From Cenarchaeum sp. (GTDB taxonomy: Archaea > Thermoproteota > Nitrososphaeria > Nitrososphaerales > Nitrosopumilaceae), in NCBI GenBank assembly GCA_963692915.1, contig OY843584.1:1568001-1632000 (forward strand): 64,000 nucleotides of DNA. The letters run 5' to 3'. The position numbers were made by a program, and so were the translations under genes. Positions within the stretch are counted from its first letter, which is position 1. Each line of letters opens with the position of its first letter. Below the pieces are notes generated by a model. That model saw only the letters and a program-made list of their open reading frames with translations. It ran no database searches and was not told the origin of the DNA. Below are positions 9,506 through 63,604 of this stretch, in pieces.

Positions 9506-9842
9506 GCATGAGATCAGCACCTGGATCGCAAGCATGGCTTTCTCGGCCATGCCCTTTCCCATGGCCTTCCACGTCGGGAATCACGTCAGGTGGGTTGACA
9601 TGCGTCTAGCAGTGGCAGCGCCACCCCTGATCTATTAGCTCACCTTGCGGCGAACAACTGCGCTGTGCAATGCCTCCCCGGCGACGTTGCTCATGGGCTT
9701 GACGTCATCATGTACAGAGCCTGAACGGCTGGAGAGGCATGGCAGGCCTGCCCGGCCACGTCGCATATTGACTTTCCATTCCGTCATTGTGGCGATCCTA
9801 CAGGCAATGCCGGGACGTCCTCTGCCGCACGTCGGCACATAC
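9506..9842 (-). mobile_element. IS66-family remnant (3' end of transposase plus TIR)
   Basis: TIR GCATGAGATCAGCACCT at 9506; minus strand reads ..DVKPMSNVAGEALHSAVVRRKVS, a decayed PTNNxAERxLRxxVxxRKxS IS66 motif. Confidence 0.7.
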
Positions 9843-9900
9843 TAGTGGACAGGCCAAGATCGGGTGATGACATATATAGTCAGAGCCGTCATTGCTCCGC

Positions 9901-10143
9901 ATGGGAAAAGGTAACAGAGGACATAGTGCTGCGAACAATCGTTCCAACTCTATGAACCCAAACAACCCAGCATACGCTGCTTCGCAGACAAATACTGCAA
10001 GTCAAATAGCGTCCTCGCGCGGACCCGGCGGCATAAAGGCGTCAAATAACGAAAGTGCGGATTCCCAGAATCCAAACAACGCCAAGCATGCGGCATCTGA
10101 GGCAAATCGTGCCCGGCAAATGTCAGAGAACAGCGAAGATTAG
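9901..10143 (+). CDS. small N/S-rich 'NPNN' repeat protein
   Basis: NNRSNSMNPNN..ADSQNPNN; close paralog at 24711-24953 including the CATATATAG promoter. Confidence 0.75.
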   Translation: MGKGNRGHSAANNRSNSMNPNNPAYAASQTNTASQIASSRGPGGIKASNNESADSQNPNNAKHAASEANRARQMSENSED

Positions 10144-10194
10144 AGTTTAGGCAAATATAGAAAGCTTCGTAGGTCGATCTGAGACGACCAACTA

Positions 10195-10208
10195 TTTTTT
10201 TATTTTTT
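10195..10208 (+). terminator. oligo-T archaeal terminator candidate
   Basis: TTTTTTTATTTTTT after the NPNN gene; equivalent T-tract at ~25002-25016 after the paralog. Confidence 0.45.
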
Positions 10209-10926
10209 CAAAGACTTGTCATTAAATGAGCCTAGCGCAGAGACTTGAATTGCCCTGTGACAGAAAACCGCCACTATCGACCCAGGTGGAGTGTCTGTGG
10301 CTGCCCCGTAAATTCTGCAAGATCGGCATACTGCGGCGTCTCTTGAGCACACTATCTGACACATGACGAGCTATGGCGTTATTCTGTCTGGCAGCTTTGT
10401 GCGTTATGGTACAGGGCAATGAGTGAAAGCTCGGTCATCTGCGTGTCTTGTCTGCACGATAGGGCGTGTCTGTGATCTGCTCCTTTGTCGAGATGAGGGT
10501 GTGCTCAATTACATTGCGTCTCTGGCACTCCACCGTAAAGAATCTACAGTCACCGTAGTATCAGCACAACATGTCACCCATAATGCCAAGATCATGAATG
10601 GCCGCTGGATCCTGACGTAATCCTTGACATATTGGAGTCTTGCCGGTGTGTCAGCACACACACCGGTGACACATTCTTTGCCTCAAAAGCGACATACTCT
10701 TCAGATCTGCCGTTCTCTGACCGTAACGATGTGAGCTCCACCCACCGCCCTAATCCACTCTGTCGCTGCTAGCATAGTATCTGCTAGTTCCTAGCATATG
10801 GAGCACTTCTTTCCAGTCCTTGCCGCTCCCATTCATTTGCATGGTTCAATCTTGTCCTCTGGTATGACCGGTGAACGCGCATAATGCGACATCCAGAGTT
10901 CTTGTGTTGAACACTGTCTCCTGGCT

Positions 10927-10982
10927 TGGGGAAGAGCGTGGTCGCGGAGGTCATGCGCGTGGTCTAGGTGTTGGCCTCACAC
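10927..10982 (+). mobile_element. IS66-derived end
   Basis: GGGGAAGAGCGTGGTCGCGGAGGTCATGCGCGTGGTCTAGGTGTTGGCCTCACAC closely matches 31646-31699. Confidence 0.75.
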
Positions 10983-11007
10983 GCCAATCAGCAGAAAAGA
11001 CCCATAT

Positions 11008-15970: not shown

Positions 15971-15987
15971 GCATGAGGTCAGCATCA
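15971..15987 (+). mobile_element. solo IS66-type TIR
   Basis: GCATGAGGTCAGCATCA. Confidence 0.55.
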
Positions 15988-16227
15988 CTGACCGTTCATT
16001 CCTATTGTGACCATGGTGTGTCTGTTTTGACGTGTTTGTCACCTGCTGATATGACCATTTCGCGTGCTGCTTGCAATGGCAAAATCAATGCCTGACGCTC
16101 TTTAGCTAACACAGAGGATCGGGTATCACGTGGATGATTCAAAGCGGGAACAGAGTCAAAATCAGCTTTTGGACAGAGCGGCTCTGGACTGCTAGTAATC
16201 ATTGAATATTCTGGGGTTCACGGTTCC

Positions 16228-18804: not shown

Positions 18805-20031
18805 TTATTCATCCCAATACTGGTCCACCATTTCTTGGAGCTTTTTTGCTAGCGTTGTTTCTGGAACAATCTCTCCTTGACGTATTGATATGGTTTCGGG
18901 ACGGCCCCTGAGTCGAATAATCACAACTTCTGAATGTTCGGGCATATTTTTGCGAACATATTCTCGGAACCTTTCAGTACGTGTCTCCACGTCATTCAAA
19001 TAGTCAAACCCAACTGCGAGCACATACACTGTTGGAGTATTTGTCTCTCTTAATGCTTCAATTTGACTTTTCTTTTCAAACAACTTTTCCCACTCTTTTC
19101 TAAAGTCTATGCGCTCGAATGATTGTGGGCATGCTGCAACAATTGTATCATGCGCATAGACTTCAGCCATATACTTGGTACTCTCAAACTCAAATCCCAG
19201 ATCAGCTACTTTTTTTGTTGGGTTGATTTTTGGCTCTATCTCTACCTTTTGAAAATATTCTGGAGCTATTGCGAGTATCTTCATCTCTGCTATCGCCGTC
19301 ATAAAATTGTCGTGTAGTTTCTGGGCATAGTCGCATCTTTGTTTATCATTACAGAATTCCCACGTCTTCTTGCAAACAGAGTCTATATACTGCATATGTT
19401 TCTTGTATGGGTCGTTGTTTTTAAAATGCTCGCTTAGCACTTGAACAAACGAATTTGTGTTTTCTTTGTCGAGGCCTTCTTTCACAATTAACAATCTGTA
19501 CATATTTGGATAGCGATCTTTTACCCATTCCCAAAATTTTGGATTGTTTGTCATAATCTGTCTATGCAGCACAATGCGGGAAATATGTCCAACTAGGGAG
19601 TTGTATTTATTTGGTGTGTGTATAATGCCCATCTCGAGTGATTTTGCACTTGCCACCCTGTCAGTTATTCTAGTGATCTGCTCTTCGTTGGGTTCTATGG
19701 CGCTCTTGAACTCGTTGTTGTGAGTATGTTGCTTCTTTAGCACTCTGAGATACATCAAGAGCGTCATCTCTACTAGGTCTGTCTGCTCCATTATCTCATC
19801 ATCCTGTCCTTCCAGCCAGTCAAACAGCTCGACATGTTTTCCCTCGTTCAACAGCTCTACTGCCTTGTTGGCAAGCTTTTGCACTCGCCCCTCCTCTTTG
19901 AGGCCTTTTGTTTGTTCATAGCGAGAAACTGCCCACGTGTAATAATCATATTTCACCACTGCTATGGGATATCTGCTTCCTGGCATTGTGCTCATGCTGC
20001 ACCCAAAGTTAGGGCGTTCTATATAACTCAT
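18805..20031 (-). CDS. helical N-domain plus C-terminal PD-(D/E)xK-like nuclease (distant paralog of 27985 and 44643)
   Basis: AEMKI..IEP...KVADLGF..MAEVY..KSQI, the same motif order as in the paralogs. Confidence 0.65.
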   Translation of the reverse strand: MSYIERPNFGCSMSTMPGSRYPIAVVKYDYYTWAVSRYEQTKGLKEEGRVQKLANKAVELLNEGKHVELFDWLEGQDDEIMEQTDLVEMTLLMYLRVLKKQHTHNNEFKSAIEPNEEQITRITDRVASAKSLEMGIIHTPNKYNSLVGHISRIVLHRQIMTNNPKFWEWVKDRYPNMYRLLIVKEGLDKENTNSFVQVLSEHFKNNDPYKKHMQYIDSVCKKTWEFCNDKQRCDYAQKLHDNFMTAIAEMKILAIAPEYFQKVEIEPKINPTKKVADLGFEFESTKYMAEVYAHDTIVAACPQSFERIDFRKEWEKLFEKKSQIEALRETNTPTVYVLAVGFDYLNDVETRTERFREYVRKNMPEHSEVVIIRLRGRPETISIRQGEIVPETTLAKKLQEMVDQYWDE

Positions 20032-20045
20032 TCTTGTTTTTGATG

Positions 20046-20158
20046 GTATGAGGTCAGCACCTCTGCCTGCTCATGCCTAGACAGGCGCTGAAGTGGCAAG
20101 TAGATCGACAGGATCACGCCTATTTGGCCAAATGAGCAGAAGGGTGCTGACCTCATAC
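20046..20158. mobile_element. 113-bp IS66-type MITE
   Basis: Perfect 16-bp TIR GTATGAGGTCAGCACC/GGTGCTGACCTCATAC and 8-bp TSD TTTTGATG on both sides. Confidence 0.92.
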
Positions 20159-20314
20159 TTTTGATGAATGAGTGTGTGTTTTACCGGGAGTCGATAAGAG
20201 TGGTTTTCGGATGTGCACGTACCCGCAGTTCTGCGGAATCTGGAATATGTGCCCTAGGGGTTCGGATGCGCGTGCCTAGCCGTTTATCCAATAGTCCCAC
20301 ACCATGACATCTCC

Positions 20315-20776
20315 TCAGGACGACGTGAGCGCATGGTACCTGCGGTGTGTGCCAATCCGGGCGACAATTCGCCATAGCGCTGCCAGGACGCGTCTGTTTG
20401 CAAACCTGCCAAGCCTGTGCGCAAGCCTTGCCATTGTCGGCACACTCCTGTAGAGGCTGGCATCCAGCGAGACGGCACGGCCAAAGGAGCCGAGCGCCTC
20501 GCGATACCGGCCAAGGGCGAGCAGGTCATACCCCATGCAAAGGCGCGTGAGCGCATCGTGGGGGCGCAGGCAGATGGCATGTTCAAGACACGGCAGCGCC
20601 TCGGCGTATCGCCCCTGCAGATACAGGAGAATGCCCATGTCCCTTGGGTCTGCGGGGGTGTGCTGTCTTTGTGGTGTGGGCGTGGGCTGTTTTGATGCCT
20701 GGGTGATGAGCGCAATGACGGCGATAATTCCGACTCCCTTGAAAAAGTCGCCCAATGCGTCATCTAGCTGACCCAT
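20315..20776 (-). CDS. small membrane-anchored TPR protein
   Basis: MGQLDDALGDFFKGVGIIAVIALI plus 2 TPRs; paralog at 30933-31400; TATA ~25 nt upstream of 20776. Confidence 0.75.
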   Translation of the reverse strand: MGQLDDALGDFFKGVGIIAVIALITQASKQPTPTPQRQHTPADPRDMGILLYLQGRYAEALPCLEHAICLRPHDALTRLCMGYDLLALGRYREALGSFGRAVSLDASLYRSVPTMARLAHRLGRFANRRVLAALWRIVARIGTHRRYHALTSS

Positions 20777-20863
20777 GGGTCTCCTTGGGGGTCTTTGCCC
20801 ATTTAAGCATTGGTTTGGATCCTGGCCTTTGGGGTTCTCAGAGGCCACATCTGAGATTTTGGC

Positions 20864-22333
20864 TTATGTGCACAAAAATCGTGCACTGACCCATGGGCGC
20901 TTTGTGTATATTTTGCTAAAAATCTCCTCCATGGCAAAATCTTTAAAACAATAATTTAGCACATCGCTTTGGGACACGTGTATTCCGAGCGACTCTAGCG
21001 TGTTCTGCATGTTGGGATTAGGATCAATCACGCACAGTTTATTGTTGTCCGCGGCAATCTTGATACAATCTAGCAGTTGGTTATTGGCCACATCGCTAAA
21101 ACTATAGCCTGCAACGATAACAAGATCTGCACTTGTAATGTCACGTTGAAACTGCAGGAATATATCTTTGTGTGCGGGATTTTTTTTAATGCCATAATAA
21201 ATAAGAAGTTTATGATCCAGCGTGGCAATGGGATGTTTTAGAAATTTTGAACGTAATGTTTTACGAACATTCCTAGATGAACTGCGCCAACTCTGAACAA
21301 AATCTTTGATTTCTTTGAGCTTCTTGGAATCGATAAAAGTTTCTCCCTTTTTTAACGACCAGTTGACGCTGCCATGGAGTTTAAGCAGGAGAAATTGTTC
21401 ATTGTTTGTGTGTCCATGGTCAAATCCACAATAACATCCATTAATAAATCCATCATAATATGTACAGTTATGCATTTGTGCAAATGATTCGATAACAAGA
21501 TCATAGTTTGTTGTTGCAATGGTCAATGATATATTTTTCCTATCCAAATGCCAGAAAAAATTTTCGTAATTCAATAGTGGCGGTATGCCATGCTCAGACC
21601 ATGAACGGGGATTGAATACTAGACAACGAGAATAGACAAATCTCTCAATCAGCTGACGCACTGCGCCAATTGTTAAATATAAACAGCACATATCTGCAGA
21701 ATGCTCAAGAAAGCAACTTTTGGCATGCATCACTCTAGCATCTTGCGGATGGTGCGTTGAGTGCCGTGTGATCATTCGGCTCGTAAAAGCTTGCATGTCT
21801 TTTTTTCTAGACGCAGGAGTGACACTGTTCAATATTTTATGGATGTTATCTATGCAGGCACTGTAAGATCGGGTGATAGACTTGCACAACTCTGTCCGGT
21901 CAGGGTCTTTCAGCTTGGCACTAGAGTCTTTTATGCAGAGCCCGTGCTGATGTTCCCTGACCACGTCCTGCAGTTTATCTAGTGTCATAAAGAGATCTTC
22001 GATTGTCTGATTGCCATGATCAAAACACAGTATGCCCAATAGATTGTTGATGGTTATAATATGTTCGTGATCATGCTCACATAATTTTACACCATGAGAA
22101 AATTCCTTAATTTGCGTGTCATCGAGGCACATTTCTTGGAGCTTATCGACAAATCCACTGCTTGTTGGAACTAGAGGCGAGGAAACGCCGGCTCCGACAA
22201 ACAACACTACTCGTTTTTTTGCTGGCGCGGGGGCTTTGACACCATTCTGACCCGTTCCGGACTCTCTGCACGCCTCGCTGTTTGGGTCTACTGTGTCGCC
22301 TCGCTCGTCGTTTGGAGTTGGCCTCTTTTTCAT
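20864..22333 (-). CDS. SIR2-like (SIR2_2) NADase-domain protein
   Basis: VLFVGAGVS, TTNYDLVIE, LLKLHGSVNW, GYSFSD. Confidence 0.9.
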   Translation of the reverse strand: MKKRPTPNDERGDTVDPNSEACRESGTGQNGVKAPAPAKKRVVLFVGAGVSSPLVPTSSGFVDKLQEMCLDDTQIKEFSHGVKLCEHDHEHIITINNLLGILCFDHGNQTIEDLFMTLDKLQDVVREHQHGLCIKDSSAKLKDPDRTELCKSITRSYSACIDNIHKILNSVTPASRKKDMQAFTSRMITRHSTHHPQDARVMHAKSCFLEHSADMCCLYLTIGAVRQLIERFVYSRCLVFNPRSWSEHGIPPLLNYENFFWHLDRKNISLTIATTNYDLVIESFAQMHNCTYYDGFINGCYCGFDHGHTNNEQFLLLKLHGSVNWSLKKGETFIDSKKLKEIKDFVQSWRSSSRNVRKTLRSKFLKHPIATLDHKLLIYYGIKKNPAHKDIFLQFQRDITSADLVIVAGYSFSDVANNQLLDCIKIAADNNKLCVIDPNPNMQNTLESLGIHVSQSDVLNYCFKDFAMEEIFSKIYTKRPWVSARFLCT

Positions 22334-22399
22334 ACCGTCATCTCCATCGACACTTGCAATAATGCCTCGAACTTAAAAGTTATGAAACATTCCGCCGCC

Positions 22400-22734
22400 T
22401 GTTTTATACGGAAAGGGGCACTACCCGTTCGTGTCTTTCCCCGTCCACCACGGGTTCCCGGCCCTGACCCTCCCGTCGGCCCTCCGCCTCCTGAAGGCCA
22501 GCAGGGGCGTCTCTCCGGTCTCCACATCGAGGGCAAAGTGGAGCCTCTCCTCGCTGTGGAGCCCGATGAACTCGGCGACCCCGCCAAAGTGGCCGATCTC
22601 CGCCTCGAGCGTCTGGAAGAGCCTCCCGGCCTTGCCGTTGGTCTGGAGGGTGCCGGACCCGCCGGCCTTCCGGGGGCTCGGGATCTGCGCCCGGCAAGCC
22701 GTCTTGCCCCCGCTCCTACTTTTCGTACAAGGCA
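22400..22734 (-). mobile_element. internally deleted (non-autonomous) IS481 derivative, 335 bp
   Basis: Both ends match the IS481 at 54556-55647; retains only the QTNGKA.RLFQTLE..EERLHFALD C-terminus. Confidence 0.85.
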
Positions 22735-22819
22735 CCGGCGGGGGTCGCATCAATCTCAGAGTTGATGCCCCGCCTCATTCTCACTAAACATTTAACCCCC
22801 CCGCACCCCAATCCCCGCC

Positions 22820-24225: not shown

Positions 24226-24286
24226 ATTTAAGCGAAACACGCCACACCCTACGGCGTGGCGGAACAGGGGGCGGAAACCCATCAAT

Positions 24287-24520: not shown

Positions 24521-24567
24521 GCGACGGCGTGGGGAATTTGGGTATTTGAAGTGTTGGGGCGCCCCCC

Positions 24568-24660
24568 GTATGGGGTCAGCACCTAGACCGCACGCATGAC
24601 CTCGGCCATCACGCCCTTCCCCTGCCTAGGCATGAACGGGTGGAGGTGCTGACCTCATAC
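24568..24660. mobile_element. 93-bp IS66-type MITE with hybrid ends
   Basis: TIR GTATGGGGTCAGCACCT...AGGTGCTGACCTCATAC; no TSD. Confidence 0.85.
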
Positions 24661-24710
24661 AGCCAGAATTGGATGATGACATATATAGCTGGAGCCAGTA
24701 CTTGGATCAA

Positions 24711-25990: not shown

Positions 25991-26105
25991 GTATGGAGCC
26001 GACACCTAGACCGCACGCATGACCTCCACGATCCCTCCCGGCGACGGTAAACCTCGTGACCTGGAGCCCACTCTGGAGGTAATCGCAATCAGTGTTGCCC
26101 TATAC
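25991..26105. mobile_element. degenerate IS66-type MITE
   Basis: GTATGGAGCCGACACCTAGACCGCACGCATGACCTC ... GTGTTGCCCTATAC. Confidence 0.6.
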
Positions 26106-26570: not shown

Positions 26571-26684
26571 GTATGAGGCCAGCACCTAGGCCGTGCGCAT
26601 GACCTCCTCGGCCACGCCCTTCCTCACGGTCTTCCACGCGAGGAAGCACGTCAGGATGGGCGGACAGGTGCGCTGACCTCATGC
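26571..26684. mobile_element. 114-bp IS66-type MITE
   Basis: GTATGAGGCCAGCACC...GCGCTGACCTCATGC. Confidence 0.8.
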
Positions 26685-26717
26685 CTGTTGGCCTGTCAAC
26701 GATTTAAATAATCAACC

Positions 26718-27281: not shown

Positions 27282-27294
27282 ATCTGATCTGGGG

Positions 27295-29730: not shown

Positions 29731-29844
29731 GTATGAGGCCAGCACCCCATGGCCCGCTCATGCCTAGACAGGCGCGAAAGCGGCAAGTAGATCGACAGGA
29801 TACGCCTATTTGGTCAAATGAGCAGAAGGGTGCTGACCTCACGC
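29731..29844. mobile_element. 114-bp IS66-type MITE
   Basis: Same internal sequence as 20046; 8-bp TSD CTGTCGCA on both sides. Confidence 0.9.
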
Positions 29845-31486: not shown

Positions 31487-31699
31487 CTGTTTGCGCTCTG
31501 CGAGCACGCCGGTGTCGCGCCCACGAACGGCTCCGCCGGAGGGCACTGCGAGACGTGGCAGTGCGGCGAGGGACAGGCCTACCAGATCGGGGGCGTCGAG
31601 GTCTAAGCCAGGCGTATGTCAAGCCTTCTGACGTGGGAGGCCATGGGGAAGAGCGTGGTCGAGGAGGTCATGCGCGCGGTCTAGGTGCTGATCTCACAC
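31487..31699 (+). mobile_element. IS66-family transposase 3' remnant with TIR
   Basis: Frameshifted LFALCEHAGVAPTNGSA/RALRDVAVRR ... GKSVVEEVMRAV*, then AGGTGCTGATCTCACAC. Confidence 0.8.
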
Positions 31700-37596: not shown

Positions 37597-37800
37597 GTAT
37601 GAGCTCAGCACCTAGACCGCACGCATGACCCTTGGCCACCGCGCCCTTTCCCCTGGCCCCCACGTCAGGAGGCACGTCAGGAGAGTTGACATGCGCATGG
37701 CCACCACCGCGCCGCCCTTGAGCTGGCCGCTCACCTTGCGGCGAACGACCACGTGGCGCAGCTCGCTTTTGGCGGCGCTGTTTGTGGGCGCGACGCCGGC
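37597..37800 (-). mobile_element. IS66-family transposase 3' remnant with TIR
   Basis: Minus strand reads AGVAPTNSAAKSELRHVVVRRKVSGQLKGG..MSTLLTCLLTW; TIR GTATGAGCTCAGCACCT at 37597. Confidence 0.85.
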
Positions 37801-42302: not shown

Positions 42303-42415
42303 GTACGAGGTCAGCATCTTTCTGCTCATTTGGCCAAACGGGCACATCCTGCCGTTCTACTTGTCGTGATGGCACCTGCCTGGGCATGAGCTGGTAAGAG
42401 GCGCTGACCCCACAT
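42303..42415. mobile_element. 113-bp IS66-type MITE (inverted relative to 20046)
   Basis: GTACGAGGTCAGCATCT..TCTGCTCATTTGGCCAAA..GGCATGAGC..GCGCTGACCCCACAT. Confidence 0.8.
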
Positions 42416-42463
42416 GGTCATATGCGTTCAATGCTTAAATTAGCGCTTACTGCTCATTGGTCT

Positions 42464-43180
42464 ATGAAGGCTGAACACGTCCTTTTGGGTGCCGGGGTCG
42501 CCGTTGTCGTCATTGTGGGCATATCCTATCTTATCAAAGCTCTCGAATCTAGCAAGACGTCAACAGATCTCCAGGATAATGACCTGCCAGACGAGCGCGG
42601 CCGTGGCGACAGGGAGTCGACAATACCGGTGCGTGCCATCTTGAATGATCCTGTCAGCTCTGAGTCATGTATTGCTCGCGCCCATAATCTCTTTAACAAT
42701 GGGCGTGGTTCTGATGCGCTACGTGTCCTTGATGATGTTATCAGTCGGGATCCTGACAATGTCAAGCCATATGTCGCCTTGGGCATAATGTTGCACAAGC
42801 GCTGCTGTCCCGAAGATGCCCTGGTCTCCTATAAGCGAGCCATTGCGCTAGACCCAACGGCAGCCGAGGCGCACGCGGGTAAGGGCCATATCTTGTTTAA
42901 CCGTGCGTTCTATGATGAGACATGTGACTCACCTGCGCTCTATAAAGAGGCGTATGCCTCACTTGCGTGCGCCAGGGCGTTTGGGTCCAATGACGCAAAG
43001 ATGTACCATTATCTTGGGCTGACTTTGGTGTTTCTTGCTAGGCTACACCCACGATTGTCCACTGTCATCAGGAAGCGTGCGATCAAGTCGTTTCGGCGCG
43101 CCCTTGACATCGACAGACACCACCCTGATACGCAAGGTTGCCTCGATTATGTCAGGAAGCACCTGAATGACGTTGCGTAG
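42464..43180 (+). CDS. membrane-anchored TPR protein
   Basis: TM, then NDLPDERGRGDREST linker and TPRs; paralog at 52490-53167. Confidence 0.8.
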   Translation: MKAEHVLLGAGVAVVVIVGISYLIKALESSKTSTDLQDNDLPDERGRGDRESTIPVRAILNDPVSSESCIARAHNLFNNGRGSDALRVLDDVISRDPDNVKPYVALGIMLHKRCCPEDALVSYKRAIALDPTAAEAHAGKGHILFNRAFYDETCDSPALYKEAYASLACARAFGSNDAKMYHYLGLTLVFLARLHPRLSTVIRKRAIKSFRRALDIDRHHPDTQGCLDYVRKHLNDVA

Positions 43181-43262
43181 TGTGACTTAGCTGCTGCTTT
43201 TGTTGCATCGCCTTTCTATATAGCTGGCCATTGCCGCACACCACACTAGCATGCGGATCTAG
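43180..43262 (-). pseudogene. 3' remnant of an AbiJ-like gene
   Basis: TGGCCATTGCCGCACACCACAC matches the 3' end of 53186-53962, at the same position downstream of the paralogous TPR gene. Confidence 0.55.
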
Positions 43263-52248: not shown

Positions 52249-52489
52249 GTGCAGCATATGGCGCGGACAAAATTTAAAGGTTTGGCAAGACGCGGCTATG
52301 CGAATGAGCACAGGTGTCTGTTCCAAGGCTGCACATGGCGTGAAATTCCGGCCTCGGCCGTGCCGATCTGTGGGGAGATTTGGGCCGATTTCACTCATGA
52401 TCTATAAATTTTGCCACGTCCTCTTGGGATTCGTGGACAGAGCCAATATGCGCTTAATGTTTAAATTAGCGTCCGCTACTCGTCGGCCT

Positions 52490-53167
52490 ATGAAGATCGG
52501 GGATATCCTTTTGGCTGCTGGTGCCGCTGCCGCCGTCATTGCGGGCATATCCTATCTTGCCAAACCTCGCGAGTCTAGCAAGCCGTCAACAGATCTACCT
52601 GATAATGACCTGCCAGATGAGCGCGGCCGTGGCGACAGGGAGTCTACAGTCCCCGCGCGCGCCATCTTGAATGATCCTATCAGCTCTGAGGCATATATCC
52701 ATCACACCCGTGATCTCTTTGGCACCGGGCATGGTCCTGAAAAGCTACTCGCCATTGATCATGCGTCCCATCTAGATCCGAACGATCCCACATCACATAT
52801 CGTCTCAGGCATACTCTCGCATGGGCTCCGCGACCGCGAGGATGCCATAGACTCTTTTGATGAGGCCATTGCGCTAGACCCAAAGGCAACCTACGCGTAC
52901 GTGGGTAGGGGCTATATCCTGTATACCCTTGCGCGCTATGAGGAGGCATATGCCTCACTTGCGTGCGCCAGGGCATTAGGGTGCAATGACCCAAAGATGC
53001 ACCATTATATTGGGCTGACTTTGGAGTTTCTTGCTAGGCAACACGATAGTCTGTCTACTGTACTTAGGTCACTTGCGATTAAATCGTTCCAATGCACCCT
53101 TGATATCGACGAACACCACTTTGACGCGCAATGTGCCCTCAAGCATGTCAGTGGACTTTTGGCATGA
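52490..53167 (+). CDS. membrane-anchored TPR protein (paralog of 42464-43180)
   Basis: MKIGDILLAAGAAAAVIAGISYL plus TPRs; shared promoter TTAAATTAGCG. Confidence 0.8.
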   Translation: MKIGDILLAAGAAAAVIAGISYLAKPRESSKPSTDLPDNDLPDERGRGDRESTVPARAILNDPISSEAYIHHTRDLFGTGHGPEKLLAIDHASHLDPNDPTSHIVSGILSHGLRDREDAIDSFDEAIALDPKATYAYVGRGYILYTLARYEEAYASLACARALGCNDPKMHHYIGLTLEFLARQHDSLSTVLRSLAIKSFQCTLDIDEHHFDAQCALKHVSGLLA

Positions 53168-53185
53168 CAGCGCATACCGTGTGAC

Positions 53186-53962
53186 TCAGCTGTGACCCCT
53201 GCCGCATCTTCTTTCTATGTAATTGGCCATTGCCGCACACCACACGAGCACGATCTGCGCGTCGTTGATATCAACCGTGTACCCCGGCTCCGCTGCGGCG
53301 TGGCGCGCACCGCTCTTGTTGCTAAAGTCGTACATCTTTTTGAACGCATCCTTTACCTTTGGGTGCAATCCGGCCCTTGAGTCTATGTCCTCTAGAATCC
53401 CTGACAGGCCGGTTTTCTTGCTATATCTTTTGGCCACGGCTTCTATCATCTTTATTGATTCGACAATCGAGGCCTCATAGTCCGGATTGGTCGGATTAAT
53501 GTGCCTGATGGCCTTTTCTGCGTGCAATTTCGCCTGCTCTGAGATGGTGCTGGCCTGATGCAGTGCGTCGATGCTCTCTTCGCCAATCACGGGCTCCATC
53601 TGACCTTCCACCATCTTCCACCCTGAATCGTTTTCAAGCAAAATCTCATTTAGTGCATCCTCAAACTTTTGCCTATCCCATTCTGCCATTTGCCCCCACA
53701 TCAACTCTAGCAGATCATAAACTTTGTTAAATTCTGCCTCATTGTATGCTTCGTACAACTCTTCGATTGAATAGCTCCACCTACTATATTCGCCACGTCT
53801 GCGCTTTTGCCAATATACCCACACTACCTCTCTTGGCAACATGCCCGCTTGATTACAATCGTCAACTATGTCCCATATGCGCCTCTTTAGATCATCGTCC
53901 ATGGACTCGAACTGCAGCCCCTTTATCGGCTCATAGCCGTACCGTTTTGAAAAACTGCTCAT
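53186..53962 (-). CDS. AbiJ N-terminal-domain protein with HEPN-like C-terminus
   Basis: FSKRYGY....LQFESMDDDL..RIW, F..VYDLLE, C-terminal GARHA. Confidence 0.75.
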   Translation of the reverse strand: MSSFSKRYGYEPIKGLQFESMDDDLKRRIWDIVDDCNQAGMLPREVVWVYWQKRRRGEYSRWSYSIEELYEAYNEAEFNKVYDLLELMWGQMAEWDRQKFEDALNEILLENDSGWKMVEGQMEPVIGEESIDALHQASTISEQAKLHAEKAIRHINPTNPDYEASIVESIKMIEAVAKRYSKKTGLSGILEDIDSRAGLHPKVKDAFKKMYDFSNKSGARHAAAEPGYTVDINDAQIVLVWCAAMANYIERRCGRGHS

Positions 53963-54555
53963 GCGGATCCGCTTGGCTTGGCATTCTCTATTAATGTGTT
54001 ATGTGAACGTTCATCGTATAATCATGTGCCGATCTTCGCGATCAGCTAGACGGTGAGTAGTAGAGATCCGGATGTGCCTCTGGTAGCTGTGGCACTGGAT
54101 TGGGAGCTCTGACAGGCTCGTCGTATGCCGTCTAGGTAGGTCACTGAAAATTGCGGTATAGATATCATGCCCGATAATTGCTCTGACAAGTTTGAACATT
54201 TAAAATTATGTGATTTTGTTGGCAATGCCGAAATATGGACAAGGGGTCGCCGAGCGGTATGAATGAAAAGCTGTGCTAACCGAGCAAATGAGCCAATATG
54301 ATGGATGCTGCCACAGCCTCAAGGCAAAGGCTAGAGATCAGAACCCATTGCCCACAATGTGTATAACGACCTATTCTAAAATTAAATTTTGTGAGGCTGT
54401 GGATGCTCACTAGGTATCTAGAGTGCAGATACTGGTAAAGTTGGGGCGTAGTCAACCCAATAAAATTATTCAACATATTATTGTCTACATCAGATATTCC
54501 CCCACGATCAACCATGAAATTCGAACCAGCCAGAAAGTGTAGATCTTTGGCGATC

Positions 54556-55647
54556 TGTATTGTACAAAAAGTAGGAGCGGGGGCCAGAGGGCTTGCCGGG
54601 CGCGGATCCGGGAGCCCGCGGAGGGCCTTCGGGTCCGGCAGGCTGCCGAAACACACGTTTGGGGGCCTCCGGCGCCGGCGCGCCATGCCGGTCAGGAGGC
54701 TGGACGCGCGGGCGCTCCGGTACATCGCGAGGACGCTTGCGACCAGGAGCACCGGGGCAGTGGCGCGCGAGCTGGGGATCTCGCCGTCGTGGGCCCGCAA
54801 GCTCCGCGCGCACTGCCGGCGGACCGGCGCGCCGCCGGAGCCGCGGCCGATGGGGAGGCCGCGCAGGCCGATCACGCGGGAGCAGGCCGACGAGGTCCTC
54901 GCCGCGCACTCGCGCGACCCCGTCGGCGTGGTGCGCCTGGTCAGGCTCATGCGGCTCAACAACTCAAAAATAGCGTACGGCGCGGCGTACCGCATATTGT
55001 CTGCGGAGGGACTGGTCAGCAGCTCGCCGGCGAGGTCGAGGAGGCGCAAGTGGGTCCGGTTCGAGAGAAAGTACTCCAACGCGATGTGGCACGTGGACTG
55101 GCACATAATGAAATACGGTCCCCTGAGGGGCTCGCACCTCATAGTGTTCCTCGACGACGCGTCGCGGTGCGTCACGGGGTTTGGCGTCTTTCCCGAGGCC
55201 ACGTCGGGCAACACGGTGATGGCGCTGCGCCACGCGATCGGGCGGTTCGGCGCGCCGGCGCAGGTGCTCTCGGACCACGGGACGCAGTTCACGGCGACCA
55301 GGCGCGGCACGCCGCGCCGCAGCTGGACGCCGACGCTCTTCGAGCGGGAGCTGCTCGACGCCGGCATATCGCACGTCATGGCGCGCGTCGGCCACCCCCA
55401 GACCAACGGCAAGGTCGAGAGGTTCTTCCGGACGCTCGAGACGGAGATCGGCCGCCATGGCGGGGTCGCCGAGTTCATCGGGCACTACAACGAGGAGAGG
55501 CTCCACTTCTCCCTCGACATGGAGACCGGCGAGACGCCCCTGCTGGCCTTCAGGAGGCGGAGGGCCGACGAGCAGGTCCGGGCGGAGAACCCCGGGTGGA
55601 TGGAGGTGGACTCGGATGGGTAGCGCTCCTACTTTCCGTATAATACA
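54556..55647 (+). mobile_element. complete IS481-family insertion sequence (1092 bp)
   Basis: TGT...ACA ends, 24-bp TIRs matching 21/24 (TGTATTGTACAAAAAGTAGGAGCG), much higher GC than the flanks; no clear TSD. Confidence 0.92.
54685..55623 (+). CDS. IS481-family DDE transposase (rve integrase core)
   Basis: HTH, WHVDW, LSDHGTQF, PQTNGKVERFFRT. Confidence 0.92.
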   Translation: MPVRRLDARALRYIARTLATRSTGAVARELGISPSWARKLRAHCRRTGAPPEPRPMGRPRRPITREQADEVLAAHSRDPVGVVRLVRLMRLNNSKIAYGAAYRILSAEGLVSSSPARSRRRKWVRFERKYSNAMWHVDWHIMKYGPLRGSHLIVFLDDASRCVTGFGVFPEATSGNTVMALRHAIGRFGAPAQVLSDHGTQFTATRRGTPRRSWTPTLFERELLDAGISHVMARVGHPQTNGKVERFFRTLETEIGRHGGVAEFIGHYNEERLHFSLDMETGETPLLAFRRRRADEQVRAENPGWMEVDSDG

Positions 55648-55656
55648 CTAGAACCG

Positions 55657-59899: not shown

Positions 59900-60160
59900 A
59901 TCGCACCCCAAAGTGCCTTATCTGCCTCTTGGAGAGCGCTTTACGGAGAAGGCCGCTGCGCGAATTTGTGTGAAATATGTGCTCAAACTCTATGGCCACC
60001 ATCTCTCGCGGCGCATATGCCTCGATGTGGCAGTCGCAGACTCGCAGGTCTGCCATCTTGCCCTTATCAATGGCCGGCTCTGGCTCTACCTCTTTTACGA
60101 GTGCGCAGAGATGGACATAGAGGCGCATCTCAAAGACATATTGTAGGAACTTACAGTTGC
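59900..60160 (-). pseudogene. internal fragment of the 27985/44643 nuclease family
   Basis: KFLQYVFEMRLYVHL..ADLRV..HIEAYAPR..LLRKALSK.QIRHFG. Confidence 0.8.
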
Positions 60161-61725
60161 GCAATTCACCTGATTCTAATGTGCTAAAATTTATTGATGG
60201 CCAGCAGCGCGTGACAACTGTTGCCCTGTTTCTCATATGCGCCCGCAATTTTTTCTATGAGCGACGAAATGACTCGTTGCTTGCCTCTAGGCACTATAAG
60301 ACTCTCCAAACGTACCTTTACAGATCCACTGACACAAAAAATCGCCGAACGTCTGATCACCTGCTCACACTAAGCCGTCCCAACAGAGAACTGTTCCAAA
60401 TTTTGATTGACAACCCTGCCGTCCAAAAAGAGACGGTTCAGCAGCACGCCGATCAAAATTCTCCAAACATGCGTCTTGTGGAAGCCTACCTCTATTTGAC
60501 ACGCTGGCTTAATTCTAAAGCTTCTTCCAAAGCTTCTTCCAAAGCTTCTTCCAAAGCTGACGAAATCAAAGAAGTCTATGCATTGGTTCGAACCCTTCTC
60601 ACAAAATTCAGTGTCTATAAAAATGAGTCTGCTGATCGTAAACTTGCACAGCGAATTTTCAAGCTGGTAAACCATCGAGGCCGCAAGCTAGACATGTCTG
60701 ATCTTGTAAAAAACTATCTGTTTGACGAGTTGGACAGCAATGCTGAAAAGATAAACATCGACGCCTATGATGACCAATGGGGCGATATTGTCAATAATGT
60801 GACAAACGAAATGACCGGAGTCAAGATGGACCACTTTTTGCACCATTATCTAATCGTGTCTGCCGGCTATAATTCGATCCCCATTAAATCAAATCACAAG
60901 CGCATGTATTTTACATTCGAAAAACTCGTGGAACGCCAGCTCCAAACCCCCAAAGCCATAATTGGCGAGTTGCGCAACTGGTCTGAAATACTTGAAATTG
61001 TCCGTAATCCCGCACATCCCGACCACTTTCCCAAACACCCAAACATCGCCTATTATCTTGCGCGCCTGAAATCCCTGAGCGTCACTCCGGCGTATCCGGC
61101 AATCCTGCTCGGCTATACCGAATACTGGAAAAAGCGTCAAACGCGGCTATTTGAGGCGCTCCTGATGCTGTGCTTCAAGTATCATATCAGGGTTCAGCTG
61201 GTCACCAAGATGAGCCCCAGTGTGTACGGGCGCACGATGAGTGACATTGCCGATGACATACACCGTGGAAAAGACCTGGACCAGATTATTGTGGATCTGA
61301 TGAACACCAACCAAAAATATCCAAACCGCAACATCATACGAGACATGCTAAAAGACAGGACTCTCAACTCTCGCGCCCCTGCCATTGCCATGTTGGAGGA
61401 GGCAGAATACCCTTCGGCCTCCACCCTGCGCCCGATGGAGGAGCCATCCCTTGAGCACATAATGCCCCGGATCCTAGACAAGGACTGGCACAGCCATGTC
61501 ATACAGCACAATGGCATTGACCCCACCAACCCTGCCCGCTCTGATGACGCGGTGAACAATTACCACCGTCGGCATGTTGACTATATGGGCAACCAGACGC
61601 TCCTGCTGCCAGGGGAGAATGGCTCACTCTCCAACAAGTCATACGACAAGAAAAGGCTAGTTTACGGAAAACAGCACGTTCAGGATAACGGGCACGCTGC
61701 CCCGCTTTACAGTCTGGGATCATGA
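60157..61725 (+). pseudogene. 5'-truncated GmrSD-like (DUF262 + DUF1524/HNH) type IV restriction gene
   Basis: Begins at IDGQQR, so the N-terminal DUF262 part is missing; N.RG..L, EHIMP, GNQTLL..N..LSNK; C-terminus looks frameshifted; contains a 12-bp x3 SKAS slippage. Confidence 0.7.
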
Positions 61726-62043
61726 AAGCATTATGAGCAGGCAGAAAAGACTTGCGTCAAGGATCACCTCATCCATAGACCTGGGCACGGTTATTGACCA
61801 TATACGGTCATAGGTGGCCCATTACACGGGTCTGTTTTTGTGGGAGTGCGCGCACTTGGCGATCGTTGCCTGTTTGCAGGTGCCTTTCTGGCATTGTGCG
61901 GACTCTGCTACATGGGGCGCTCTGAGATCCCTGGGATTGAACAACGCGTCCATCTGCTGTTCTAGAGGCTGCGCCCGAGGCGGCTATTTTGGTGAAATGT
62001 TCTGGCCTCCGGGGACGCCTGCCCTAACTGACCTGTATTGGTT

Positions 62044-63093
62044 TTAGGGGTTTTGGAAACGCACATATGAATTGCCGTTTAGACGATTAATCTGCTCTTC
62101 ATACCAATATTGATCGCGTATGTATCCCATGTTTCTCCTACCATGGTCCCCATCCCTATACGTGTCTTGAGAATAATAGTATCGTATTCTCTGTTGAAGC
62201 TTTGAAATCATAAACCCCGCCTCAAATATCCATTTTTTCACCATGTCTTTCTTTTGGTAATACGTCGGCGTAAATTCAGATGGGTATCGGGCGTCTTCAT
62301 GAACATATAGCGCATAGTACCTCCATGTCCACACGTCATCTAGAAAATCATACATTGTTTTTACCTTGCGAATTTCCCATGTTGACAAGAGGTCTTCTAT
62401 GTTGTCTTTAAACTCCACCTCACTCCAACTAATTGCTGATCTGTAATTGCGCATGGGTCCCAATATTTCACTTGGCTGAAATTGCAAAGGACGTAGTTGT
62501 TTGCATATGTACTCGTAATAGCGTTCAGGATCTAGCGTTTCATGTATATTTGCCAACTCTGTCCACACATCCATGCCAATTCCGTTTGCAATCAAACTCG
62601 GTGTTTCTTTGATGTATTCCAACACTGCGGACTTTGCTGGGTTTACACATATGCCTAATGTGATATTTTTCAGTTCATTCCGGTGCTCATCCCTGTTTAG
62701 CAATCTGTTAAACTGCCTTCCTAATTTGTTTGTAAAAATATCGTGCCTGTAATCTTTGGGATTGAAACTATCATCAAATGCAGCATAATATACCATGATG
62801 GCCTTGATCTCCTTTTCCATCGCCTGCTGGGCATGATACATTGCAATTGCCGGACTCTTGTCCACTATTCTAGCTGCCTGCTCTATATCATAATTGGAAT
62901 ATTGTTCCCAAACACAATGCCACCCCCATGCGTGATGTAGCCTCTTTATGATCTCTGCCTTGAATTCCCTAGTTTTCATATTGCGCATACTTGCTAATGA
63001 TTTATCATCTGCAACCCCGCCCTTCTCGCTCTCCCTGCCGTGATCTCTCACGTTGCCATCTGGACCATCCCTCTGCCACTCCCCTTCTTCCAC
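62044..63093 (-). CDS. HEPN-domain protein
   Basis: AMYHAQQAMEKEIKA..HD....HEDARYP. Confidence 0.8.
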   Translation of the reverse strand: MEEGEWQRDGPDGNVRDHGRESEKGGVADDKSLASMRNMKTREFKAEIIKRLHHAWGWHCVWEQYSNYDIEQAARIVDKSPAIAMYHAQQAMEKEIKAIMVYYAAFDDSFNPKDYRHDIFTNKLGRQFNRLLNRDEHRNELKNITLGICVNPAKSAVLEYIKETPSLIANGIGMDVWTELANIHETLDPERYYEYICKQLRPLQFQPSEILGPMRNYRSAISWSEVEFKDNIEDLLSTWEIRKVKTMYDFLDDVWTWRYYALYVHEDARYPSEFTPTYYQKKDMVKKWIFEAGFMISKLQQRIRYYYSQDTYRDGDHGRRNMGYIRDQYWYEEQINRLNGNSYVRFQNP

Positions 63094-63213
63094 CTTGCTC
63101 CATCTTGCGACTGTTTGATATTAACTATCCCTGTTCGGTAGTCGCTCATGCGCCTAACCGGAGCCTGCCGAAGACGGTCTTTGAGGCACGCGCACCAGTT
63201 TGACGCGATTCCG

Positions 63214-63261
63214 GTCGTGGCCAAGGAGCTCATATGTACGATCTAGTCGCTGACCCCATAT
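63214..63261 (+). mobile_element. degenerate IS66-derived end
   Basis: CGTGGCCAAGGAGCTCATATGTACGATCTAGTCGCTGACCCCATAT resembles the reverse complement of the 26571 end. Confidence 0.6.
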
Positions 63262-63380
63262 ACCATCAGGCGTCTGTCTCAACTAGCGTCATCACGCACG
63301 AGTCCCATATTGGCGTGTTGGTGCTGTGATCGGCCAACCGTGGGGAACCCCTAGTGTTCAATATGGGCAATAATTGCAGG

Positions 63381-63542
63381 CTATCGGCGAAGCCCTTCGC
63401 GCAGGATCGCAAGCCCCACCATCCAGGCAATGTCAGTCCAAGTCACGCTCCCCGGACCGTGCTGGATCACCTTGGCCCCAAGCATGATAGTCGAGCCGAT
63501 AGCCGCACCATCCACAATGTCGCGCGCGTCGTCCTTGTTCAC
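63381..63542 (-). CDS. 53-aa hydrophobic microprotein, copy 3
   Basis: (M)NKDDARDIVDGAAIGSTIMLGAKVIQHGPGSVTWTDIAWMVGLAILREGLRR; CCTTAAATTC promoter identical to copy 1. Confidence 0.75.
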   Translation of the reverse strand: MNKDDARDIVDGAAIGSTIMLGAKVIQHGPGSVTWTDIAWMVGLAILREGLRR

Positions 63543-63587
63543 GTGCAGCGTATGGTAAGGACAGAATTTAAGGGTTTTATAGGATGC

Positions 63588-63604
63588 GTATGGGGTCAGT
63601 ACCC
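63588..63604 (+). mobile_element. solo IS66-type TIR
   Basis: GTATGGGGTCAGTACCC. Confidence 0.6.

What the first reader, a model, noticed from the sequence alone, without database searches (positions are those of the whole stretch)
9506..63604. IS66-derived ends punctuate the island and coincide with boundaries of duplicated cassettes
Seen: 13 loci carry the TIR consensus GTATGAGGTCAGCACC (9506, 10982, 15971, 20046, 24568, 25991, 26571, 29731, 31699, 37597, 42303, 63261, 63588). Homology between paralogous cassettes starts or stops within a few bases of these ends. Examples are the NPNN cassette after 9842 and 24660, the TM-TPR cassette after 42415 and the TPR/MEPGE/SLETNRYY module at 37597. 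The 53-aa gene is bracketed by 63261 and 63588. Only two copies retain a TSD. Established: IS66 elements have GTA-starting TIRs and 8-bp TSDs. Inference: MITE ends, mobilised in trans, cut and shuffle promoter-bearing cassettes, giving an integron-like array without an integrase.
Basis: partly seen in the sequence, partly recalled or inferred. Interest (0 to 1): 0.7.

Follow-up and report, generated by a model that had tools for sequence, protein, structure and literature searches.

The report
Promoter-seeking IS66-type transposon and MITEs
The repeated 16-base motif is the end of an IS66-type jumping gene and its miniature derivatives in a sponge-associated ammonia-oxidising archaeon, and these elements land at a fixed spot just upstream of gene promoters, which is why they seem to frame gene cassettes.

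Summary
The motif is real: 17 matches in the window against 0.53 expected. It is the terminal inverted repeat of a single-ORF IS66-family element of ISBst12 type. Two intact copies with perfect ends and 8-bp duplications lie elsewhere in the genome. The window holds three ~113-bp MITEs, two short hybrid elements and several solo end remnants.

The claimed link to cassette boundaries holds for a minority. Only 3 of 17 ends abut a one-sided paralogy boundary. "9842" is not an IS end.

The stronger pattern is different. Element ends sit about 17-20 bp upstream of a TATA-like box and about 49-52 bp upstream of an ATG. I see this in this genome, in a congener and in a Nitrosopumilus genome with a related IS. 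Empty sites confirm that the promoters were there first. Promoter-edge homing plus IS-type rearrangement best explains the picture. An integron-like system is not supported, although one MITE-bounded gene insertion in the congener shows that cassettes can move.

Earlier notes of this scan report the same promoter-edge habit for IS66-type MITEs in other archaea. I found no paper describing it.

The parts
9506..9712 (-). Solo right-end remnant of the IS: TIR plus the last ~63 codons of the transposase. The outer terminus is at 9506. It faces the promoter of gene 8221-9456(-), with the TATA-like run starting at 18 and the ATG at 50 bp.
   Evidence: blastn to IS positions 1331-1527; tblastn to transposase residues 429-491; flank
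10927..10982 (+). 56-bp right-end fragment with its outer terminus at 10982. Similarity to the congener's copy of the adjacent gene starts exactly at 10983.
15971..16005 (+). Degenerate MITE end: TIR 14/16, followed by about 19 bp that resemble the MITE's non-IRL end by eye.
20046..20158 (.). 113-bp MITE with perfect 16-bp TIRs and the 8-bp TSD TTTTGATG. The left flank has a TATA-like run starting at 20 and an ATG at 51 bp.
24568..24660 (.). 93-bp hybrid element: an IS right-end type arm (24568-24622) plus a MITE-type arm. It has no TSD. The paralogous small-gene cassette (24659-25037, matching 9849-10228) begins at its right terminus, with the TATA-like run starting at 21 and the ATG at 51 bp.
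25991..26033 (-). 43-bp right-end fragment whose TIR has 4 mismatches. Its flank has an A/T-rich TATA-like stretch at about 16-26 and an ATG at 50 bp, the start of gene 25153-25941(-).
26571..26684 (.). 114-bp element: 92 bp of IS right end plus a degenerate second TIR. It has no TSD.
29731..29844 (.). 114-bp MITE with TSD CTGTCGCA. It is a simple insertion into a member of a repeat family; an uninterrupted paralog lies at C1:1328604-1328611.
31487..31699 (+). Solo right-end remnant (IS positions 1306-1529; transposase residues 423-491) with its outer terminus at 31699.
37597..37800 (-). Solo right-end remnant (IS positions 1326-1529). It is shared with the congener (G001:1917762), but the outer flank differs between the two genomes.
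42303..42415 (.). Degenerate MITE, 77% identical to the 20046 copy, without a TSD. Both flanks have a TATA-like run starting at 20-21 and an ATG at 49 bp: the KTSC gene on the left and the membrane-TPR gene on the right, probably starting at 42464.
63588..63618 (+). Degenerate end remnant (TIR 14/16) next to the promoter of the 53-aa gene on the minus strand. It lies in a block 98% identical to the congener, and a decayed copy of the end is also seen at the 52.3-kb paralog.
9849..10228 (+). Small-gene cassette (promoter, ~80-codon ORF, T-rich terminator), paralogous to 24659-25037 at 81%. No recognisable IS end lies at its left edge.
42420..43260 (+). Membrane-TPR gene with its core promoter, paralogous to 52446-53256. 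The homology starts about 44 bp upstream of the probable start codon.

Best explanation
The motif marks the ends of an active single-ORF IS66-family insertion sequence of ISBst12 type and its non-autonomous derivatives: ~113-bp MITEs, short hybrids and solo right-end remnants. They have accumulated in a variable island rich in TPR-protein and defence genes in an ammonia-oxidising archaeon of the Cenarchaeum lineage. The elements are not placed at random. The transposase integrates with an 8-bp (sometimes 9-bp) staggered cut about 10 bp upstream of the BRE/TATA region, so each terminus lies about 17-20 bp from a TATA-like box and about 49-52 bp from the start codon of an outward-reading gene. 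The genes are probably leaderless. Insertion occurs in either orientation. Element ends therefore coincide with the upstream edges of transcription units, and this makes them look like cassette punctuation.

Most copies have lost their TSD, and some homology or synteny breaks sit exactly at a terminus. I infer later transposase-mediated or recombinational rearrangements, such as adjacent deletion or inversion and occasional composite transposition, whose second endpoint is again a promoter edge.

Shown: the identity of the IS and MITEs, the TSDs, the fixed spacing, the pre-existing promoters at empty sites, and one MITE-bounded insertion. Inferred: that the TATA-like boxes are functional promoters, how the transposase recognises them (the motif itself, or TBP/TFB-bent DNA), and the rearrangement mechanism.
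For: Identity. Two full-length copies lie at C1:405121-406649 and 508130-509673. They have perfect TIRs, 8-bp TSDs, and one 491/496-aa ORF with DDE_Tnp_IS66 (E 5.6e-37) and zf-IS66. The MITE aligns to about 60 bp of the IS left end. The solo remnants align to the last 55-225 bp of the right end.

Spacing in this genome. Of 51 termini (up to 2 mismatches), 25 have a 7/7 A/T run starting 14-24 bp outward; after collapsing paralogous flanks this is 21 of 47. The figure for random intergenic points is 3.1%. An ATG starts at 47-53 bp in 23 of 51 (null 13.6%). Both features occur in 15 of 51 (null 0.7%).

Congener G001. TATA 23 of 62, ATG 30 of 62, both 17 of 62. Pooled over the two genomes and de-duplicated, 38, 43 and 25 of 93 flanks show the three features.

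Third genome G041 (Nitrosopumilus sp.; related IS at about 38% protein identity; 23 full-length copies, 22 with a perfect TSD). TATA in 13 of 50 distinct flanks against a local null of 2.0%.

All three genomes. The first A/T run starts at 17-20 bp in 40 of 143 distinct flanks, at 13-24 bp in 51 of 143, at some other position within 90 bp in 17, and is absent in 75.

Clean insertions only. Of 35 elements with an intact TSD, 19 (strict criterion) or 28 (relaxed) have the box on at least one side, against nulls of 5.1% and 19.5%.

Flank logo. TTWWAWA at positions 20-26, A-rich at 14-16, and no preference inside the TSD.

Genome-wide promoter geometry. The A/T peak lies at -31 to -26 from ATG starts, measured on 541 ORFs.

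Empty sites. The G001 IS at 397612-399127 and the MITE at 619141-619248 correspond to uninterrupted G000 sites at 335786-335793 and 507015-507023, which already carry the TATA-like box and the ATG. Where G000 has a 232-bp spacer between divergent promoters, G001 has two elements, one at each promoter edge.

Rearrangement. 25 of 37 complete elements lack a TSD. Synteny or similarity breaks fall exactly at 10982/10983 and 37597. Different modules are joined exactly at MITE termini at C1:1369688, 1373642 and 1376436. G001:237239-238650 (element + ~970-bp gene segment + MITE) is flanked by an 8/9 duplication of a site that is single in G000.
Against: No transcription start data exist, so the TATA-like boxes are called promoters only from geometry. 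About half of all termini (75 of 143 distinct flanks) have no A/T run within 90 bp. This fits one-sided targeting but leaves some elements with none: 7 of 37 complete elements and 7 of 35 TSD-intact elements even under the relaxed criterion.

Some loci are orthologous or paralogous between genomes, so the counts are not fully independent. I collapsed flanks at 70% identity or more.

Promoter-edge position alone did not raise the chance of a paralogy breakpoint in the window: null B gave 2 of 29, or 6.9%. The three abrupt boundaries are therefore not fully explained by targeting.

The excess of two-sided promoter geometry in TSD-less elements (6 of 25 against 1 of 12 with a TSD) is too small a difference to weigh; I did not test it statistically. 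No reciprocal 8/8 TSDs were found, so the rearrangement step remains an inference.
Confidence: 0.72

Rival explanations
1. MITE ends, mobilised in trans, actively cut out and re-insert promoter-bearing cassettes, and this is the main process that builds the island, giving an integron-like array without an integrase.
For: One clear case lies in the congener. G001:237239-238650 (328-bp element + ~970-bp gene segment + 113-bp MITE) sits within an 8/9 target duplication, opposite a single-copy site in G000. Modules are joined exactly at MITE termini at C1:1369688, 1373642 and 1376436. Genome-wide, 15 of 55 termini abut a paralogous block within 12 bp, against 47 of 600 random intergenic points. 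Abrupt boundaries occur at window 24660 and 42415.
Against: In the window only 3 of 17 ends show a one-sided boundary. The pair 9506...10982 has no TSD. No 8/8 TSD links distant ends in G000. Module A at C1:1368545-1369688 has no TIR at its other edge, even allowing 5 mismatches. Of the 15 genome-wide cases, 2 are a simple insertion into a repeat, 3 have an end at the same position in the paralog, and at least 3 lie in one repeated target family. The cassettes have their own promoters, and the 84 window ORFs gave no Pfam match to a recombinase family. No attC-like repeat was searched for.
Confidence: 0.15
2. Survivorship only. Insertion is random, and only copies that fall in the short non-essential spacer just upstream of promoters survive in a compact genome.
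For: The genome is compact: 83% lies in ORFs of at least 150 aa by a crude call. Insertions inside genes or core promoters would be selected against.
Against: The spacing is too sharp. The A/T run starts at 17-20 bp in 40 flanks but in only 4 flanks between 25 and 44 bp. ATG positions peak at 49-52 bp. In the 232-bp spacer of G000:185024-185255, the two G001 elements both sit at the extreme promoter edges. Young full-length copies with perfect TIRs and TSDs show the same pattern.
Confidence: 0.05
3. Exaptation. The elements are retained at a fixed distance because they supply an upstream regulatory or insulating function to the adjacent promoter.
For: The position just upstream of BRE is where archaeal regulators often bind (recalled, not tested). 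Many copies are old and conserved between the two Cenarchaeum genomes; for example, window 63588 lies in a 98% identical block.
Against: Full-length, evidently recent IS copies show the same spacing. Either end can face the promoter. By eye, the MITE sequence has no TATA-like run of its own. No expression data are available.
Confidence: 0.06

Closest known systems
IS66 family, ISBst12 group (single-transposase members), and MITEs derived from them
   Same: A DDE_Tnp_IS66 plus zf-IS66 transposase as the only ORF in a ~1.5-kb element, TIRs starting GTA, 8-bp TSDs, and short non-coding derivatives that share the TIRs. The group name and its typical size and TSD are recalled from ISfinder; no call returned them.
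   Different: Fixed-distance insertion upstream of archaeal TATA boxes is not a described property of the family in the papers I could search (listings and abstracts only, apart from passages of PMC13343696).
TnGBS conjugative elements and ISLre2 / ISKra4 insertion sequences (prokaryotic Mutator-like transposases)
   Same: DDE transposons that integrate at a fixed distance upstream of promoters, 15-17 bp upstream of the -35 box of sigma-A promoters (PMC3942029, passages read).
   Different: They have a different transposase superfamily and live in bacterial hosts with sigma-A promoters, and most insert in one orientation. Here the transposase is IS66-type, the target is an archaeal BRE/TATA promoter, and both orientations occur. 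That paper reports for archaea only that ISH6 prefers an AT-rich motif that is itself duplicated.
Yeast Ty3/Ty1 and Dictyostelium TRE elements (targeting next to Pol III genes through TFIIIB)
   Same: The behaviour is similar: integration at a fixed position beside a transcription initiation complex, which spares genes in a compact genome (recalled, no call).
   Different: These are retrotransposons with integrases, and tethering to a transcription factor is demonstrated for them. No tethering is demonstrated here.
Composite transposons bounded by MITEs (for example TIME-COMPs of Tn3-derived MITEs)
   Same: Two miniature elements flank a passenger segment inside one target duplication, as at G001:237239-238650. 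PMC13367494 was seen only as a listing and abstract.
   Different: This is a different transposon family. There is only one such case here, and none with a TSD in the window.
Integrons
   Same: Only the superficial picture of an array of small gene units separated by a recurring short sequence.
   Different: There is no integrase match, the cassettes carry their own promoters, and the recurring sequence is a transposon end. No attC-like repeat was searched for.

Membership tests
IS66 family (ISBst12-type, single ORF) | Transposase with the DDE_Tnp_IS66 catalytic domain | tested here: met
   PF03050 at 128 bits (cut-off 23.1) in both full-length copies. zf-IS66 scores 26.3/25.6 bits, just under its 27.3-bit cut-off.
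IS66 family (ISBst12-type, single ORF) | Terminal inverted repeats starting GTA, and 8-bp target-site duplication | tested here: met
   Perfect 16-bp TIRs GTATGAGGTCAGCACC. 8/8 TSDs occur at 2 of 2 IS copies in G000, 4 of 4 in G001 and 22 of 23 in G041.
IS66 family (ISBst12-type, single ORF) | One transposase ORF only, without the tnpA/tnpB accessory genes of canonical IS66 | tested here: met
   A 1529/1544-bp element filled by one 491/496-aa frame. The canonical three-gene IS66 layout is therefore not met.
IS66 family (ISBst12-type, single ORF) | Demonstrated transposition | not testable with these tools
   Only indirect evidence: identical TIRs, intact TSDs, and filled versus empty sites between genomes.
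MITE of that IS | Short, non-coding, multicopy, same TIRs and TSD length as an autonomous element in the same genome | tested here: met
   22 matches to the 113-bp copy in G000 and 23 in G001. Alignment to the IS left end. 6 MITEs with a TSD of at least 7/8 in G000.
Integron | Tyrosine-recombinase integrase with attI and a common promoter; promoterless cassettes ending in attC | tested here: not met
   No integrase family among the Pfam hits of 84 window ORFs. The cassettes have their own TATA-like boxes. The recurring sequence is an IS end. attC was not searched for with a dedicated model.
Composite transposon (two ends mobilising a passenger) | Passenger flanked by two elements, with one target duplication outside the outer ends and an empty site elsewhere | tested here: inconclusive
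   Not met in the window: 9506...10982 has flanks CGATCTAC and GCCAATCA, and no distant 8/8 pairs exist. Met once in the congener, at G001:237239-238650, with an 8/9 duplication and a G000 empty site.
Promoter-targeting Mutator-like elements (TnGBS / ISLre2 / ISKra4) | p-MULT transposase; insertion 15-17 bp upstream of the -35 box of sigma-A promoters | tested here: not met
   The transposase is IS66-type, and the target is a TATA-like box in an archaeon. The behaviour is analogous, but this is not membership.

The most novel reading that the evidence does not exclude
The IS66-type transposase reads the archaeal pre-initiation architecture (TBP/TFB-bent BRE/TATA DNA) and integrates at about -49. 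Every end attack therefore lands on a promoter edge. Intramolecular transposition and transposition from two separate ends would then delete, invert or move whole transcription units with their promoters intact. That would be a promoter-anchored cassette-shuffling process that diversifies the TPR-protein and defence islands of sponge symbionts.
Probability: 0.25. Interest if true: 0.8.

Novelty: new variant of a known kind. Interest (0 to 1): 0.6.

Why it matters
Promoter-edge targeting is documented for bacterial Mutator-like elements and for yeast retrotransposons. I found no paper describing it for archaeal insertion sequences or for the IS66 family. If the spacing reflects recognition of the TBP/TFB-promoter complex, it gives a simple natural system for asking how a DDE transposase reads a eukaryote-like initiation complex. 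It would also supply a ready-made annotation of promoters in uncultured archaea. And it would explain how mobile elements can multiply in compact symbiont genomes without destroying genes while still reshuffling whole transcription units in variable islands.

Tried and rejected
1. G000 has no 8/8 pair other than the two ends of a single element, and 4 pairs at 7/8 against 1.2 expected. G001 has only the composite at 237239/238650.

2. An IS end at 9842. Local alignment of 9701-9860 against the IS and MITEs did not clearly exceed 100 shuffles: one of six comparisons scored 22 against a shuffle maximum of 20, and the others were below their maxima.

3. Promoter-edge null for paralogy breakpoints. 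2 of 29 candidate positions (6.9%), no higher than random intergenic points at 6.1%. Targeting alone therefore does not predict the three abrupt boundaries.

4. Two-sided promoter geometry as a signature of rearrangement. 6 of 25 TSD-less elements against 1 of 12 with a TSD; the difference is too small to use and I did not test it statistically.

5. Public sequencing runs. No RNA holder is listed. Contigs of 4 runs laid on window 19001-39000 break at the repeats. Nearly all joints have short sides and come from paralogous copies. One contig in run X2 joins 29497 to 34321 (side 41), which resembles the congener's shorter arrangement, but neither endpoint is an IS66-type end. This gives no usable evidence on order polymorphism.

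6. Orthologous empty sites in G001 for the window MITEs. None was found at E <= 1e-10.

7. Literature searches for Cenarchaeum MITEs, ISBst12 target choice and archaeal TATA-directed insertion found nothing relevant. Supplements were not consulted.


Full report
OBSERVATION. The motif GTATGAGGTCAGCACC occurs 17 times in the window at up to 3 mismatches. Shuffles give a mean of 0.53 and a maximum of 3. Locus 25991 has four mismatches but continues into IS right-end sequence, so it is real. Locus 63261 needs an indel and has no other IS similarity. The whole genome is one contig of 1,644,826 bp at 59.4% GC. It holds 79 matches, 17 of them in this 64-kb window, whose GC per 2-kb bin ranges from 39% to 60%.

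WHAT THE ELEMENTS ARE. Two full-length elements lie at C1:405121-406649 (1529 bp) and C1:508130-509673 (1544 bp); they are 88.6% identical to each other. Both have perfect 16-bp TIRs and 8-bp TSDs (CTCATGCG, TATGGGCA). Each holds a single 491/496-aa frame with DDE_Tnp_IS66 (128 bits) and a sub-threshold zf-IS66 match. This is the single-transposase layout that ISfinder calls the ISBst12 group of the IS66 family (name recalled).

The ~113-bp elements share about 60 bp with the IS left end plus a second arm. They occur 22 times in this genome and 23 times in one congener, G001; no match was found in the other 39 relatives searched. The window also holds remnants of the right end only, carrying the last 55-225 bp of the IS including the last ~62-69 transposase codons: 9506-9712, 31487-31699 and 37597-37800. 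Shorter fragments lie at 10927-10982, 24568-24622, 25991-26033 and 26571-26662.

The host encodes archaeal AmoA. A locus with the congener's contig length and coordinates carries the record title 'MAG: Cenarchaeum sp.'. The window encodes many TPR proteins, several defence-type proteins (OLD-like ATPase, GmrSD, SIR2_2, AbiJ, DUF3800) and many orphan ORFs.

THE BOUNDARY CLAIM. I took 600 bp outward from each of 17 termini and searched the genome. Paralogous similarity starts 2 bp from 24660, 5 bp from 42415 and 11 bp from 63588. At 29731/29844 both flanks match one uninterrupted paralog that overlaps by the 8-bp TSD, so this is a simple insertion. The other 12 ends have the nearest boundary 97 to more than 4000 bp away, or none. 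Counting breakpoints within 15 bp gives 5 of 17, against 6.1% for random intergenic points; without the simple insertion it is 3 of 15.

The small-gene cassette (24659-25037, matching 9849-10228 at 81%) spans promoter, ORF and T-rich terminator. Its copy at 9849 has no recognisable IS end beside it. The membrane-TPR gene pair (42420-43260, matching 52446-53256) shares sequence from about 44 bp upstream of the probable start codon. At 63588 the alignment with the 52-kb paralog runs through a decayed copy of the end, so end and flank were duplicated together.

Genome-wide, 15 of 55 termini abut a paralogous block within 12 bp, against 47 of 600 random intergenic points. These 15 include the simple insertion, three copies whose paralogs carry an end at the same base, and several insertions into one repeated target family.

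THE STRONGER PATTERN. Reading outward from the termini, the flanks are unrelated in sequence but share an A/T-rich box at a fixed distance. The A/T fraction is 0.74 at 21-25 bp, against about 0.40 elsewhere.

- This genome. 25 of 51 termini have a 7/7 A/T run starting 14-24 bp out (21 of 47 after collapsing paralogous flanks), against 3.1% of random intergenic points. An ATG starts at 47-53 bp in 23 of 51 (null 13.6%), and both features occur in 15 of 51 (null 0.7%).
- Congener G001. It has 62 termini against 1 control match, and four full-length copies, all with perfect TSDs. The figures are 23, 30 and 17 of 62.
- Pooled and de-duplicated over the two genomes: 38, 43 and 25 of 93 flanks.
- Flank logo: TTWWAWA at positions 20-26, an A-rich patch at 14-16, and no preference within the TSD.
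- Genome-wide, A/T content peaks at -31 to -26 from ATG starts (541 ORFs). This is the geometry expected for archaeal TATA boxes in front of leaderless genes (inference).
- Third genome G041, a Nitrosopumilus sp. It carries a related IS at about 38% protein identity with TIR GTATGAATTCACCTG, 23 full-length copies, 22 of them with perfect TSDs. The box is present in 13 of 50 distinct flanks, against 2.0% locally.
- Over all three genomes, the first A/T run starts at 17-20 bp in 40 of 143 distinct flanks and at 25-44 bp in only 4.
- Among 35 elements with intact TSDs, 19 (strict) or 28 (relaxed) have the box on at least one side, against 5.1% and 19.5%.
- Either end of the element can face the box.

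Empty sites settle the order of events. The G001 IS at 397612-399127 and the MITE at 619141-619248 correspond to uninterrupted G000 sites that already hold the box and the ATG. Where G000 has a 232-bp spacer between two divergent promoters, G001 has two elements, one at each promoter edge. In the window, I count 12 of 18 ends with the box at the canonical place by eye; this hand count was not produced by a single call.

The elements land at the upstream edge of transcription units, so they frame promoter-plus-gene units without having moved them. Later rearrangement is nevertheless evident.

- 25 of 37 complete elements have no TSD, and most of these flank pairs match at 3 or fewer of 8 bases.
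- Similarity to the congener starts exactly at 10983. The shared remnant at 37597/1917762 has different outer flanks in the two genomes.
- At C1:1365-1378 kb, three 1145-bp units end exactly at a MITE terminus and are followed by three different modules. They have no TIR at their other edge.
- MITE 42303-42415 has canonical promoter geometry on both sides but no TSD.

Intramolecular transposition, which produces adjacent deletions and inversions with one endpoint at the terminus and the other at a new target, would give exactly this. It is textbook IS behaviour, but here it is an inference.

One case supports true cassette movement. G001:237239-238650 is a 328-bp IS derivative, about 970 bp with a membrane-protein gene, and a 113-bp MITE. 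It lies within an 8/9 duplication of a site that is single in G000.

Integron features are absent: no integrase match, and the cassettes carry their own promoters. No attC-like repeat was searched for. The island as a whole is a variable region between conserved flanks. Blocks of 88-98% identity to G001 are colinear but interrupted by genome-specific DNA, and only 1 of about 12 block edges (37597) coincides with an end.

COMPARISON WITH WHAT IS KNOWN. Membership in the IS66 family (single-ORF type) and MITE status are met on every feature I could test. The targeting behaviour resembles that of TnGBS, ISLre2 and ISKra4, which insert 15-17 bp upstream of the -35 box of sigma-A promoters (PMC3942029, passages). 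It also resembles yeast Ty3/Ty1 (recalled). Those elements have other enzymes and other hosts. Six searches of the paper library found no description of TATA-directed insertion by an archaeal IS or by the IS66 family (listings and abstracts, plus passages of PMC13343696). After I had reached this reading, I found that earlier notes of this scan report the same habit for IS66-type MITEs in a Thermoplasmata archaeon and in DPANN archaea. Those are unchecked AI notes on other DNA.

LIMITS. There are no expression data: no RNA run is listed. Contigs of four DNA runs break at the repeats and give no reliable evidence on order polymorphism. My gene calls are crude. Some flanks are related between genomes, which I handled by collapsing them at 70% identity or more.

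VERDICT. The motif and its IS66 origin are confirmed. The boundary coincidence is true for a few ends. The integron-like reading is not supported. The main result is a promoter-edge-targeting IS66-type element with its MITEs, a new variant of a known kind.

Noticed in passing
window 54555-55648 (ORF 54276-55478, minus strand, 400 aa); also window 22382-22765: A 1.09-kb stretch is 97-98% identical to at least 3 copies in the congener, with further copies at 83-89%. It carries a 400-aa ORF without any Pfam match. Window 22400-22730 looks like a deletion derivative of it. It is probably another mobile element with an unrecognised transposase.
   Followed up: partly
window 34083-34315: A 230-bp repeat has at least 13 copies at about 89-90% identity in the congener. 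Public contigs break or run on unlike at its edges. It may be a second MITE family.
   Followed up: no
window 3769-3934: This short stretch has more than 15 copies at 73-78% identity in the congener, clustered around G001:1637-1669 kb.
   Followed up: no
G000 C1:508130, 677277, 1419481; G001 C1:619141: Four insertions (IS, IS fragment, MITEs) lie in members of one repeated target. A TATA-bearing arm (GTTTTATACGAAAAGTAGTAG...) faces a degenerate inverted copy of itself, and the element sits between the arms. It may be a hot spot or a palindromic regulatory site.
   Followed up: partly
G000 C1:1365000-1378000: A second mosaic region holds three 1145-bp gene+MITE units and other modules joined exactly at MITE termini. 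The 1350-1400 kb bin holds 9 TIR matches.
   Followed up: partly
window 39994-42018, 60157-61725, 20864-22333, 53186-53962, 29972-30715: Defence-type genes are scattered through the island: an OLD-like ATPase with TOPRIM, GmrSD, a SIR2_2 protein, an AbiJ N-terminal domain protein and a DUF3800 protein. The 22 kb from 38967 to 61275 has no high-identity counterpart in the congener.
   Followed up: no
window 63617-63632: A run of about 15 G follows the degenerate end at 63588.
   Followed up: no
window 29497 / 34321: One contig of public run X2 joins these two points (side 41, depth 43 against about 90). It skips 4.8 kb that the congener also lacks. This may be a strain variant or a paralog.
   Followed up: no
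L058 (G041 C1:200954-202492) and G041 C1:115999, 1154893: In the Nitrosopumilus genome, several IS copies sit inside or beside one palindromic repeat (GGTGTGTCCTAGTAATAAAAAATGCC...).
   Followed up: no
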